Source of the DNA: a virus
Virus genome (UHGV): UHGV-1336742
Reading direction: 5' to 3' (one strand)
Length of the DNA stretch: 23,584 nt
Each line of letters opens with the position of its first letter. Within the stretch, counting starts at the first letter, position 1. Position numbers and translations under genes: made by a program. The notes below the pieces were generated by a model, which was not told the origin of the DNA, searched no databases, and worked only from the letters and a program-made list of their open reading frames with translations. Shown here in pieces: positions 1,403 to 2,180 of the stretch.

Positions 1403-1457
1403 ACACGTGTTAAGGTGTACACCTATCGAATGAAAACATAACGCTATAGGTGTACAC
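1403..1457. promoter_or_regulatory. Divergent control region with palindromic operator candidates
   Basis: Perfect 12-bp palindrome AGGTGTACACCT at 1413-1424, second AGGTGTACAC copy at 1448-1457 abutting the ATG at 1458, and the related palindrome ACACGTGT at 1403-1410. Confidence 0.45.
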
Positions 1458-1652
1458 ATGTCAACAATAATTAAACGCGATAAAAAACCCAAAGGGACAG
1501 GAAAGGCTCCCCCTTTCCATATGCGTATAGCTCCAGAACTGAAAGAACAGTTTGATAGCGAGGCTAATAATGATGGTGTAAGCCTTGCTAACTGGCTTAA
1601 AGAGTTAGGGCGCTCCGAACTAAAGCGGCGCGGTATCGAACCTAAGGGGTGA
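1458..1652 (+). CDS. Arc/MetJ-type ribbon-helix-helix DNA-binding protein (64 aa)
   Basis: PPFHMRIAPELKEQFDSEANNDGVSLANWLKELGRSELKRRG fits a strand-helix-helix pattern resembling P22 Arc (PQFNLRWPREVLDLVRKVAEENGRSVNSEIYQRVMESF, from memory); operator palindromes lie at its start. Confidence 0.55.
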   Translation: MSTIIKRDKKPKGTGKAPPFHMRIAPELKEQFDSEANNDGVSLANWLKELGRSELKRRGIEPKG

Positions 1653-1683
1653 ATTACTACTTCTATGATAGGATATATTAACA

Positions 1684-2127
1684 ATGAAGAGATTTAGAAC
1701 AATATTACTGAAAATACTCGGTGCAAAAACATCCATTGCCATATTATGTGTTTTTTGTGGAGCAAGCTTTTTGTTCGGCCAATATCTTAATGATATGAAT
1801 CTATTCGCCAGCTCAGGTGCAATTATTTCAGTTTTTGGATTGTTGTATACAATCAAGTTCACAACTTTAAAAAAATTATCTAATCGCGAAGCTGAAATTA
1901 ATTCACGCAGTGGCGTAACTGGCCCGCCATTGTCTGCGGAAGAATCACAAAAGATACGAGAAGAAAACTTAGCTAAAGCTCGAGTTGAGGTCAGAGAGGA
2001 AATAAAAGCTGAAGTACTCGGGGTTGGACTAACTGTTTTTGGCACCATTATATGGGCATATGGCGGATACATAAAAATTATTCCATCCCTCGTAATGTGG
2101 ATAAGACATTCATTGTTGATGCAATAG
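1684..2127 (+). CDS. AT-rich membrane protein (147 aa): three hydrophobic segments flanking a charged coil
   Basis: Hydrophobic segments SIAILCVFCGASFLFGQY, GAIISVFGLLYTI and LGVGLTVFGTIIWAYGGYIKIIPSLVMWI around a charged stretch (EESQKIREENLAKARVEVREEIKAE); 31 nt downstream of the RHH gene; terminator follows. Confidence 0.6.
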   Translation: MKRFRTILLKILGAKTSIAILCVFCGASFLFGQYLNDMNLFASSGAIISVFGLLYTIKFTTLKKLSNREAEINSRSGVTGPPLSAEESQKIREENLAKARVEVREEIKAEVLGVGLTVFGTIIWAYGGYIKIIPSLVMWIRHSLLMQ

Positions 2128-2148
2128 AGAAAAATATAAAAATAAAAC

Positions 2149-2180
2149 TGGCGACCACCTCGGTCGCCTTTACTTTTATC
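2149..2180. terminator. Bidirectional rho-independent terminator
   Basis: Hairpin GGCGACC-ACCT-CGGTCGCC followed by TTTACTTTTAT on the plus strand and by a T-run on the minus strand; sits between the convergent membrane-protein and Bro-N genes. Confidence 0.6.

What the first reader, a model, noticed from the sequence alone, without database searches (positions are those of the whole stretch)
1403..2180. Arc-like RHH regulator with perfect palindromic operators, plus an AT-rich three-TM membrane protein: candidate exclusion or toxin cassette
A 12-bp perfect palindrome AGGTGTACACCT (1413-1424), a second AGGTGTACAC copy abutting the start codon (1448-1457) and a related ACACGTGT palindrome (1403-1410) sit in the divergent control region of a 64-aa ribbon-helix-helix protein. 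That gene is followed 31 nt later by a visibly AT-rich gene for a 147-aa protein with three hydrophobic segments and a charged coil, then a strong terminator. A small autoregulator paired with a membrane protein is typical of superinfection-exclusion, abortive-infection or toxin-like modules; I do not recognise this pair as a described system.
Basis: partly seen in the sequence, partly recalled or inferred. Interest (0 to 1): 0.6.

Follow-up and report, generated by a model that had tools for sequence, protein, structure and literature searches.

The report
Satellite repressor with swappable membrane-protein cargo
The small DNA-binding protein is most likely the built-in repressor of a phage satellite lodged inside an E. 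coli prophage, and the membrane protein after it is one of many interchangeable cargo genes in a slot that elsewhere holds known anti-phage genes, so it is a plausible but untested new phage-defence protein rather than half of a dedicated two-gene cassette.

Summary
All stated coordinates check out: both palindromes, the 64-aa ribbon-helix-helix (RHH) gene, the 31-nt gap, the 147-aa three-segment membrane protein and the terminator.

The region lies in a helper-embedded PICI, a phage satellite inserted in the terminase gpA gene of a Qin-like prophage.

The RHH is Arc-like and belongs to the satellite backbone. Its two boxes, O1 and O2, sit on two conserved overlapping promoters. Across 52 distinct control regions, the box cores change together with the two RHH residues that align with Arc's DNA-contacting Gln9 and Asn11. 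This gives at least six specificity classes. I infer it represses the Icd-like/primase operon and itself.

The pair is not a dedicated cassette. The RHH gene region (window 1300-1652) matches in 563 of 5,426 E. coli genomes, but homology stops at its stop codon. The next position holds at least ten alternative genes, or none. These include PD-T7-1 (E 1e-153) and a putative AbiC.

The membrane protein matches no Pfam, PHROG, NCBIfam or PADLOC family and no known fold. It also occurs on small plasmids and mobilisable elements.

Best reading: repressor-driven cargo in a satellite defence hotspot, probably an anti-phage membrane protein. A toxin-antitoxin reading is disfavoured.

The parts
1408..1416 (+). 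Predicted rightward promoter (P_R) for the RHH and cargo genes: extended -10, TGTTAAGGT, overlapping the left half of O1
   Evidence: Read. TGnTAnnnT is present at this position in 51 of 52 distinct control regions of related satellites. No transcription start was measured, so this is an inference.
1413..1424 (.). Operator box O1, AGGTGTACACCT (core GGT-N4-ACC); overlaps the P_R -10 and lies about +5 to +16 of the leftward promoter
   Evidence: The core changes together with the RHH beta-strand class in related loci.
1435..1440 (-). Predicted leftward promoter (P_L) -10, TATGTT, in the spacer between O1 and O2
   Evidence: Promoter scan. TAnnnT at 17-18 nt spacing from the -35 in 51 of 52 control regions.
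1446..1457 (.). Operator box O2, ATAGGTGTACAC, inverted copy of O1; fills the spacer between the P_L -35 and -10 and contains the RHH Shine-Dalgarno AGGTG (1448-1452)
1459..1464 (-). P_L -35, TTGACA, inside codons 1-3 of the RHH gene
   Evidence: TTGACA is present in 52 of 52 control regions, including variants that start with TTG or GTG.
1458..1652 (+). 64-aa Arc/Mnt-like ribbon-helix-helix protein; predicted repressor of P_L and autoregulator of P_R. NCBI names close homologues 'HicB family antitoxin'.
   Evidence: Residues 19 and 21, aligned to Arc Gln9 and Asn11, define the specificity classes.
1684..2127 (+). 147-aa inner-membrane protein: three hydrophobic helices plus a charged helical hairpin predicted to be cytoplasmic. 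Interchangeable cargo gene, low GC.
   Evidence: No family match.
2150..2168 (.). Bidirectional intrinsic terminator closing the RHH-cargo unit
1109..1318 (-). Icd-like gene, first gene of the leftward operon (Icd-like, unnamed ORF, DUF4222, primase) that P_L would drive
1318..1395 (+). Conserved structured element opposite the Icd-like ribosome-binding site: a short hairpin plus a long hairpin with a T run on the + strand. Candidate cis-antisense RNA.
   Evidence: 16 of 22 predicted pairs show compensatory changes, and there are many G-U pairs on the + strand. Rfam gives only a sub-threshold SymR hit.
2344..2925 (-). Bro-N / antirepressor-like gene of the satellite 'Bro zone', convergent with the cargo gene
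   Evidence: phrog_2593 anti-repressor, E 9e-83.
2984..4438 (-). AlpA-like gene (2984-3187) and tyrosine integrase (3200-4438) of the satellite; beyond them lies the interrupted prophage terminase gene (4600-5592)

Best explanation
The finding contains two things of different standing.

(1) The 64-aa protein is an Arc/Mnt-type RHH repressor that belongs to the backbone of a helper-embedded PICI satellite. Dimers would bind two inverted GGT-N4-ACC boxes. O2 fills the spacer of the leftward sigma-70 promoter that drives the Icd-like, DUF4222 and primase genes. O1 covers that promoter's start region and also the extended -10 of the RHH gene's own promoter. The RHH would therefore keep the satellite's replication operon off in the resident state and limit its own level.

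(2) The 147-aa membrane protein is not the RHH's partner. It is a horizontally acquired cargo gene in a variable slot directly after the RHH stop codon. It has no predicted terminator before it and no credible promoter of its own, so it would be made continuously from the autoregulated RHH promoter while the satellite is quiescent. Other satellites carry proven or annotated anti-phage genes in the same slot. I therefore take it to be an anti-phage inner-membrane protein.

My preferred mechanism is an oligomeric membrane protein that either blocks entry of incoming phage DNA or opens the membrane on infection. The basis is Gly/Ser/Ala-rich helices 2 and 3, the cytoplasmic hairpin, and fusion of the module to nuclease or zinc-ribbon domains in distant relatives.

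Shown: the anatomy, family membership of the RHH, operator/residue co-variation, promoter conservation and slot variability. Inferred: DNA binding, repression, co-transcription and the anti-phage role.
For: Context:
- An identical region in strain IMT16316 lies in a roughly 10-kb element with integrase, Bro-N, primase, SSB and capsid genes. It splits a prophage gpA terminase gene into two pseudogene halves (the AlpA-like gene is read from the window).
- This matches the HE-PICI organisation described in PMC10111431.

RHH identity:
- Profile hit to P22 Arc at E 3e-4 over the full domain, and to Mnt at E 0.087.
- PHROG Arc-like repressor family at E 9e-6.
- The AF2 model has an extended segment followed by helices 26-38 and 43-57.

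Operators:
- In 52 distinct control regions from 87 loci, the box core follows the residues aligned to Arc Gln9/Asn11:
  - P-H: GGTGTACACC
  - A-Q: GGTGTGTACC / GGTACACAC
  - Q-R/K: GGTG[GA][CT]CACC
  - M-N: GGTATAGACC
  - I-S: GTATGGACC
  - T-Q: the L099/L104 pair has ACGTACGTAC, while L015 has GGTACATAC like the A-Q class
  - P-Q (L002): TGTAATG
- The 16-21-nt spacer (25 in one locus) varies freely.
- The operator motif occurs nowhere else in the full satellite.

Promoters: TTGACA in 52/52, TAnnnT at 17-18 nt in 51/52, TGnTAnnnT in 51/52.

Cargo slot:
- The RHH gene region (window 1300-1652) matches in 563 of 5,426 E. coli genomes, but the membrane gene is in only 4. Homology ends at the RHH stop.
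- Alternatives in the slot include PD-T7-1 (E about 1e-153), putAbiC (Pfam E 3e-16), DUF5677, a SWIM protein and others, or nothing.
- PD-T7-1 is an experimentally validated defence gene (PMC9519451).

Membrane gene:
- It is 37% GC.
- A 70%-identical homologue follows a different-class RHH in another satellite lineage.
- A Xenorhabdus copy still carries a 3' fragment of an RHH gene upstream, as expected if cargo is exchanged by recombination within the RHH gene.
- The family occurs only on mobile elements among the contexts seen.
- Distant members are fused to an Mrr_cat/NA-iREase1 nuclease domain or to a Cys-rich N-terminal region.
Against: - No binding, transcription or phage data exist. The promoters are consensus predictions supported only by conservation.
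- Some alternatives in the same slot are tiny ORFs or proteins with no defence signature, so not every occupant need be defensive.
- It has no homologue in 50,697 cultured phage genomes.
- In the model PICI EcCICFT073, induction runs through the activator AlpA, and no repressor has been demonstrated (PMC6092414). A repressor role for the RHH in the satellite cycle is therefore unproven.
- A conserved antisense-RNA-like element next door could be the main control of the leftward operon instead.
Confidence: 0.55

Rival explanations
1. Toxin-antitoxin or addiction cassette: the membrane protein is a toxin, and the RHH is its antitoxin and autorepressor, stabilising the satellite.
For: NCBI names close homologues of the RHH 'HicB family antitoxin'. 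Pfam HicB gives a weak match, E 0.0027, below the cutoff. RHH-first two-gene operons with palindromic operators are typical of type II TA loci (general knowledge). Acinetobacter plasmid copies of the membrane gene lie among TA modules.
Against: The pairing is not conserved. The same RHH precedes at least ten unrelated genes, or none. The membrane gene occurs with no RHH gene. The RHH is 64 aa with no extension beyond the DNA-binding fold that could hold a toxin. There is no HicA gene nearby. The operators sit on the promoter of the replication operon, which a TA autoregulator would not need.
Confidence: 0.07
2. The membrane protein serves the satellite's own cycle or its contest with the helper, for example as a holin/antiholin-like lysis-timing factor or an interference factor, rather than defending against unrelated phages.
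For: The satellite is embedded in its helper, and satellites commonly encode interference functions (PMC10111431, PMC6092414). Small multi-helix membrane proteins with Gly-rich helices resemble holins in general form. Two family members give weak Pfam Phage_holin_3_6 matches, best E 0.0046.
Against: Most relatives of the satellite lack the gene, so it cannot be a core life-cycle function. It is predicted to be expressed from the repressor promoter in the quiescent state, not with late genes. It is found on plasmids and mobilisable elements that have no helper phage. The holin matches are far below threshold.
Confidence: 0.12
3. The membrane protein is non-defence cargo that benefits the host in another way, such as immunity to a pore-forming bacteriocin or contact-dependent toxin, or stress tolerance.
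For: Three- to four-helix inner-membrane proteins of 110-180 aa are the usual form of immunity proteins to pore-forming colicins (general knowledge). The gene is carried on small plasmids. Satellites also carry non-defence accessory genes such as PerC.
Against: No sequence or fold similarity to any immunity protein. No toxin gene is adjacent in any context examined. The slot's identifiable occupants are defence-type genes.
Confidence: 0.1
4. The inverted repeat acts as an RNA hairpin that hides the RHH ribosome-binding site, not as a pair of protein operators.
For: The arms are 12 nt and perfectly complementary in the window, and the 3' arm contains the Shine-Dalgarno sequence. 21 of 51 distinct regions keep perfect complementarity, and some changes are concerted in both arms.
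Against: 14 of 51 regions have two or more mismatches. In the Q-R class the two central bases vary independently between arms (GGCC, GGTC, GACC), leaving only 9-10 Watson-Crick pairs. This fits a dimer site with an unread centre, not a stem. Box cores track the residues aligned to Arc's DNA-contacting positions. With the predicted start sites, neither transcript contains both arms.
Confidence: 0.07

Closest known systems
Phage P22 immI region (Arc and Mnt ribbon-helix-helix repressors acting on the overlapping Pant/Pmnt promoters)
   Same: A small RHH protein with sequence similarity to Arc and Mnt. Symmetric boxes lie between and next to the hexamers of two closely overlapping, oppositely directed promoters. 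An antirepressor-type (Bro-N) gene lies nearby.
   Different: Here there is one RHH gene, not two. The controlled operon is a satellite replication module (Icd-like, DUF4222, primase), not ant. The two boxes are about 35 bp apart centre to centre. Binding is inferred, not shown.
Defence hotspots of P2-like phages, P4-like satellites and PICIs (Rousset et al. 2022, cited; Fillol-Salom et al. 2022, not held in the library, so recalled from memory)
   Same: A fixed position between conserved genes of a satellite holds alternative cargo, including validated defence genes (PD-T7-1) and Abi-like genes.
   Different: The slot is immediately 3' of the RHH regulator, in the 'Bro zone'. It is not the P4 hotspot described as near the cos site, nor the PICI accessory region downstream of pri (both locations as described in PMC11364771). 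In the papers I could read, I found no description of this slot.
Prophage exclusion or abortive-infection genes co-transcribed with the repressor (lambda rexA/rexB with cI; P22 sieA; T4 imm); from general knowledge
   Same: A membrane protein predicted to be expressed in the resident state from the promoter of the element's repressor. It is a small multi-helix inner-membrane protein with no enzymatic domain.
   Different: No sequence or fold similarity to RexB, SieA/SieB, Imm or holins. It has no partner like RexA. It is carried by a satellite, not a phage, and is absent from 50,697 phage genomes.
SaPI master repressor Stl / Rpr of Gram-positive PICIs
   Same: A regulator transcribed divergently from the replication operon at the corresponding map position. 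Accessory genes lie next to it (PMC6092414).
   Different: Stl proteins are larger helix-turn-helix repressors relieved by helper proteins. [quoted passage not shown] Nothing is known about an inducer of this RHH.
HicB antitoxins (the name NCBI gives to close homologues)
   Same: Shares the RHH DNA-binding fold found at the C-terminus of HicB (Pfam HicB E 0.0027, residues 20-48).
   Different: Lacks the HicB N-terminal domain and any HicA partner. The score is below the Pfam cutoff. The name looks like an over-extension.

Membership tests
Ribbon-helix-helix (Arc/MetJ) transcription factors | Sequence and fold: a beta strand followed by two helices in about 45 residues, with similarity to known members | tested here: met
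   Profile against PDB: Arc E 3e-4 (query 12-59 to Arc 2-49), Mnt E 0.087. PHROG Arc-like repressor E 9e-6. AF2 model: extended segment 18-25, helices 26-38 and 43-57.
Ribbon-helix-helix (Arc/MetJ) transcription factors | Dimer binds repeated or symmetric DNA boxes through the beta ribbon | not testable with these tools
   Indirect support only. Box cores co-vary with the residues aligned to Arc Gln9/Asn11 in at least six classes, while the spacers drift.
Type II toxin-antitoxin module (RHH antitoxin plus toxin), including HicAB | The two genes are conserved as a pair | tested here: not met
   The RHH is followed by at least ten unrelated genes, or none. The membrane gene is found with no RHH gene. 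No HicA gene is nearby.
Type II toxin-antitoxin module (RHH antitoxin plus toxin), including HicAB | The antitoxin carries a toxin-binding region in addition to the DNA-binding fold | tested here: not met
   64 aa in total. The RHH fold spans residues about 18-57, preceded by a basic tail with low model confidence. There is no C-terminal extension.
Type II toxin-antitoxin module (RHH antitoxin plus toxin), including HicAB | The second gene product is toxic and is neutralised by the first | not testable with these tools
   Needs expression experiments.
Helper-embedded / Gram-negative PICI satellites (PMC10111431, PMC6092414) | Integrase and AlpA, then a Bro zone, a primase replication zone and captured late genes; inserted in a prophage late gene | tested here: met
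   Integrase, AlpA-like, Bro-N, DUF4222 and primase are in the window. The full element carries SSB and capsid-protease genes and splits gpA in strain IMT16316. The organisation matches.
Defence hotspot of a mobile element | Variable gene content at a fixed position between conserved flanks | tested here: met
   Homology breaks at the RHH stop. At least ten cargo types were seen across 87 loci.
Defence hotspot of a mobile element | Known defence genes are among the alternative occupants | tested here: met
   PD-T7-1 E 2e-153 and 1.3e-153; AbiC/AbiP weak in PADLOC, and Pfam putAbiC E 2.8e-16. PD-T7-1 was validated experimentally in PMC9519451.
Defence hotspot of a mobile element | This occupant protects against phage | not testable with these tools
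   Needs a phage challenge.
Known or candidate defence proteins (PADLOC-DB 2.0) | Significant match of the membrane protein to a model | tested here: not met
   Only HEC-01B at E 0.035, 11.9 bits.
Holins / superinfection-exclusion membrane proteins | Sequence or fold similarity to a described family | tested here: not met

The most novel reading that the evidence does not exclude
The Arc-like RHH family, together with the unrelated YlcI/YnfO-type small protein at the same position in EcCICFT073, is the so-far unidentified resident-state repressor of Gram-negative PICIs. Its six or more operator-specificity classes would define satellite immunity groups. It would be relieved through the AlpA-driven Bro-N antirepressor-like gene, and it would work together with a new cis-antisense RNA. 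The position after the RHH gene would be an undescribed PICI defence hotspot, and the 147-aa protein there would found a new family of stand-alone membrane effectors against phage.
Probability: 0.2. Interest if true: 0.7.

Novelty: new member of a known kind. Interest (0 to 1): 0.42.

Why it matters
Three testable leads come out of this.

1. A common, unannotated membrane protein is nominated as a defence gene purely by its position. Its 90%-identity cluster includes sequences recorded on 519, 460 and 141 contigs, named as Shigella sonnei and E. coli. It is cheap to test.

2. The slot right after the RHH gene looks like a defence hotspot of Gram-negative PICIs. I did not find it described in the papers I could read. 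Its other unknown occupants (241-aa, 176-180-aa, 395-aa DUF5677 and SWIM proteins) become candidates too.

3. [quoted passage not shown] A conserved Arc-like protein sitting on the promoter of the replication operon, with natural specificity variants, gives a direct handle on that question.

Tried and rejected
Membrane protein, homology and fold:
- Pfam, PHROGs, PADLOC and NCBIfam gave no family.
- Scanning all 38 aligned homologues against Pfam gave only scattered sub-threshold hits.
- The afdb50 fold library was unavailable.
- A search for a conserved partner gene next to distant family members found none. Neighbouring proteins are unrelated to each other. The 111-aa ORF upstream of the Acinetobacter copy has no meaningful Pfam match.
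- tblastn against cultured phages gave no match.

RNA:
- Rfam at gathering and at E-value thresholds found no C4, isrK or other family in the control region.

Loci and literature:
- The search for related loci on genome contigs with the single RHH protein gave only 3 loci. An alignment query on IMG/VR then gave 80.
- No paper cites the protein accessions. None links Gram-negative PICIs with RHH regulators. The Cell 2022 paper on PICI immune systems is not held.

Ideas rejected:
- The ACACGTGT palindrome as a third operator. It is not conserved as a palindrome.
- The RNA-hairpin reading of the inverted repeat is disfavoured.
- Genes c1499 and c1500 of EcCICFT073 as the regulator pair. They are capsid and decoration genes.
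Full report

Yes.
- ACACGTGT at 1403-1410.
- AGGTGTACACCT at 1413-1424.
- A second AGGTGTACAC at 1448-1457, directly before the ATG at 1458.

The ORF list gives a 64-aa ORF at 1458-1652 and a 147-aa ORF at 1684-2127, 31 nt apart. A hairpin at 2150-2168 (7 pairs on the + strand and 8 on the - strand, 6 of them G-C) with T runs on both strands follows.

The 10-mer with up to one mismatch occurs four times in the 23.6-kb window, always at these two sites. The expectation is 0.72, and one of 100 shuffles reached four.

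The repeat finder shows the more informative description: a perfect 12-nt inverted repeat, GTGTACACCTAT / ATAGGTGTACAC, with a 19-nt spacer.

The membrane gene is 37.2% GC, against 45.6% for the RHH gene.

**2. Where is it?**

The region is 100% identical to E. coli strain IMT16316. There it lies in an element of roughly 10 kb with these parts:
- an integrase (cut by IS1 in that strain);
- Bro-N;
- the two genes of the finding;
- an Icd-like gene, a small ORF, DUF4222, a primase and SSB;
- a capsid-protease fusion and a DUF1441 gene.

The AlpA-like gene next to the integrase is read from the window itself, where the integrase is intact.

The element splits the terminase gpA gene of a Qin-like lambdoid prophage into two pseudogene halves. 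Relatives sit in a prophage major-capsid gene and carry their own capsid and decoration genes.

This is the helper-embedded PICI (HE-PICI) described by Tommasini, Mageeney and Williams. They define four zones: integration, Bro, replication and late (PMC10111431). The finding lies in their dynamic Bro zone. That paper does not mention the RHH gene.

**3. The small protein**

Family evidence:
- A profile of 26 homologues hits P22 Arc (E 3e-4, query 12-59 to Arc 2-49) and Mnt (E 0.087) in the PDB sequence set.
- PHROGs gives 'Arc-like repressor' at E 9e-6.
- Pfam HicB is below its cutoff. NCBI nevertheless names homologues 'HicB family antitoxin'.
- The AF2 model has an extended segment followed by helices 26-38 and 43-57.

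In the Arc alignment, Arc's Gln9, Asn11 and Arg13 correspond to residues 19, 21 and 23 here. That these three Arc residues contact DNA is from general knowledge of the Arc-operator structure. Residue 23 is an invariant Arg. Residues 19 and 21 are the variable ones.

**4. The boxes behave as operators**

I fetched 80 related loci from IMG/VR and added seven others. Together they give 52 distinct control regions. The box core follows residues 19 and 21:

| Residues 19/21 | Box core |
|---|---|
| P-H | GGTGTACACC |
| A-Q | GGTGTGTACC / GGTACACAC |
| Q-R or Q-K | GGTG[GA][CT]CACC |
| M-N | GGTATAGACC |
| I-S | GTATGGACC |
| T-Q (L099, L104) | ACGTACGTAC |
| T-Q (L015) | GGTACATAC, as in the A-Q class |
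| P-Q (L002) | TGTAATG / CATTACA |

The architecture is constant: O1, then a spacer of 16-21 nt (25 in one locus), then O2 abutting the start codon. The spacer sequence drifts freely.

Morganella keeps the P-H residues and the same boxes in an otherwise diverged region.

An RNA-hairpin reading is weaker. 14 of 51 regions have two or more mismatches between the arms. In the Q-R class the two central bases differ independently in the two arms.

**5. Promoters**

The scan finds a leftward promoter: TTGACA (1464-1459), an 18-nt spacer, then TATGTT (1440-1435).

Conservation across the 52 regions:
- TTGACA is present in 52.
- A TAnnnT hexamer at 17-18 nt spacing is present in 51.
- A rightward extended -10, TGnTAnnnT (window 1408-1416), is present in 51.

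So O2 fills the spacer of the leftward promoter. O1 covers that promoter's start region and also the -10 of the RHH gene's own promoter. The ACACGTGT palindrome is not conserved; only its GTGT half is, as part of the TGn element.

I infer that the RHH represses the Icd-like/primase operon and autoregulates. The layout recalls Arc and Mnt on the overlapping Pant and Pmnt promoters of P22 (general knowledge). The operator motif is found nowhere else in the whole satellite.

**6. The two genes are not a dedicated pair**

Window 1300-1652, which covers the end of the Icd-like gene, the control region and the RHH gene, matches in 563 of 5,426 complete E. coli genomes. Only four continue through the membrane gene, and the match ends at the RHH stop codon.

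Downstream I found these alternatives:
- a SWIM zinc-finger protein;
- 449-456-aa proteins;
- 395-aa, 241-aa, 227-aa and 176-180-aa proteins;
- several small ORFs;
- or nothing before the convergent Bro gene.

Identities of the larger occupants:
- The 449-456-aa proteins are PD-T7-1 (E about 1e-153). This defence gene was validated by functional selection (PMC9519451).
- The 227-aa protein is a Pfam putAbiC (E 2.8e-16).
- The 395-aa protein carries DUF5677.

The position after the RHH gene is therefore a cargo slot with defence genes among its occupants. PICI accessory regions described in a paper I could read lie downstream of pri (PMC11364771). I found no description of this slot.

**7. The membrane protein**

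Homology:
- It has no Pfam, PHROG, PADLOC or NCBIfam match.
- A full HMMER scan finds 52 representative clusters at E up to 1e-3.
- Conserved features are N-x-F-[AS]-[SA]-S-G-A...G-L in helix 2 and G-T-x-I-W-A-Y-G in helix 3.

Structure and topology:
- The AF2 model (pLDDT 90.5) shows helix 14-34. Helix 39-77 and helix 85-129 together form a long charged hairpin beyond the membrane. A short amphipathic helix lies at 134-145.
- The N-terminus carries five positive charges. This suggests N-in topology with a cytoplasmic hairpin.

Contexts are all mobile elements:
- a second satellite lineage, where a 70%-identical copy again follows an RHH of another class;
- a Xenorhabdus island, where the gene is preceded by a 3' fragment of an RHH gene while an intact RHH sits next to the primase;
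- elements with a relaxase and NikA, carrying a fused 285-aa form;
- small Acinetobacter plasmids, among toxin-antitoxin modules.

Distant members are fused to an Mrr_cat/NA-iREase1 nuclease domain or to a Cys-rich N-terminal region. No conserved partner gene exists. There is no copy in 50,697 phage genomes.

**8. Mechanism I commit to**

The RHH keeps the replication operon shut and sets its own level. The cargo gene rides on that promoter and is made in the resident state.

By position and form, I take it to be an oligomeric inner-membrane anti-phage protein, acting either by exclusion or by infection-triggered membrane damage. I put about 0.8 on the regulator-plus-cargo organisation and about 0.5 on an anti-phage role.

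The toxin-antitoxin reading fails the test of conserved pairing.

**9. Comparison and novelty**

The RHH is a member of the Arc/Mnt family. The element is an HE-PICI. The cargo-slot logic is that of known satellite and prophage defence hotspots.

What is new:
- the membrane protein family as a candidate;
- this particular slot;
- the suggestion that Gram-negative PICIs have an RHH repressor, with natural specificity classes.

The founding paper called the existence of such a repressor unclear (PMC6092414). EcCICFT073 has a different small protein (YlcI/YnfO family) at the same position, with two direct AGGTGTGGCCCAC repeats.

**10. Verdict**

I rate it as a new member of known kinds, of moderate interest.

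Noticed in passing
window 1318-1395 (+ strand): A conserved structured element lies opposite the ribosome-binding site and start of the Icd-like gene: a short hairpin plus a long hairpin followed by a T run on the + strand. 16 of 22 predicted pairs show compensatory changes in 30 loci. Frequent G-U pairs on the + strand argue for a + strand RNA, so this is a candidate cis-antisense RNA. A possible extended -10, TGGTATGAT, is at 1303-1311. No Rfam family matches; the only hit is sub-threshold SymR, E 0.84.
   Followed up: partly
window 1-4600, junction near 4440-4600; L001 11453-23952: The whole region belongs to a satellite (helper-embedded PICI) inserted in the terminase gpA gene of a Qin-like lambdoid prophage. 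The N-terminal gpA fragment is at 4600-5592 (-). Related satellites sit in a prophage capsid gene and bring their own capsid and decoration genes. This is a known phenomenon (PMC10111431).
   Followed up: yes
L039, L092-L095, L100 (449-456 aa); L083-L087 (227 aa); L096, L098, L103 (395 aa); L071-L074 (241 aa); L037, L046, L090, L097: The position immediately after the RHH gene in related satellites holds PD-T7-1, a putAbiC protein, a DUF5677 protein and several proteins with no family. One is a 180-aa protein with a PD-(D/E)xK-like motif (my reading). These unknowns are defence candidates by position.
   Followed up: partly
L010 7850-7920 and 9161-9376: In Xenorhabdus ishibashii the membrane gene is preceded by a 3' fragment of an RHH gene (PELRQQLNDAVEREDMNFGYWMK*). 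An intact RHH of another class sits next to the primase. This suggests cargo is exchanged by recombination within the RHH gene.
   Followed up: partly
L108 10243-10870 (E. coli CFT073, EcCICFT073): The model PICI EcCICFT073 has, at the same position divergent from its Icd-like gene, a 59-aa YlcI/YnfO-family protein and a 57-aa ORF. Two direct AGGTGTGGCCCAC repeats lie in the control region, and the same leader hairpin is present. As far as I could find, this small regulator has not been studied.
   Followed up: partly
window 8590-8975, 11486-11878, 15173-15347, 19821-19872: Rfam hits typical of the Qin prophage: two cspA-type thermoregulator leaders, the sok antitoxin RNA and DicF. These are ordinary features of the host prophage.
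   Followed up: no
window 1458-1652 and homologues: NCBI annotation calls this stand-alone RHH a 'toxin-antitoxin system HicB family antitoxin', and a 2026 survey lists 'HicB' as satellite accessory cargo (PMC13612085). The protein lacks the HicB N-terminal domain and any HicA partner, so the name is probably misleading.
   Followed up: yes
L105 3088-3843 (Acinetobacter pittii plasmid pTCM-2): A 47.7%-identical copy of the membrane protein lies on small Acinetobacter plasmids (7-24 kb), among BrnTA, RelBE and ParE modules. It follows a 111-aa ORF that looks to me like a truncated gene.
   Followed up: partly
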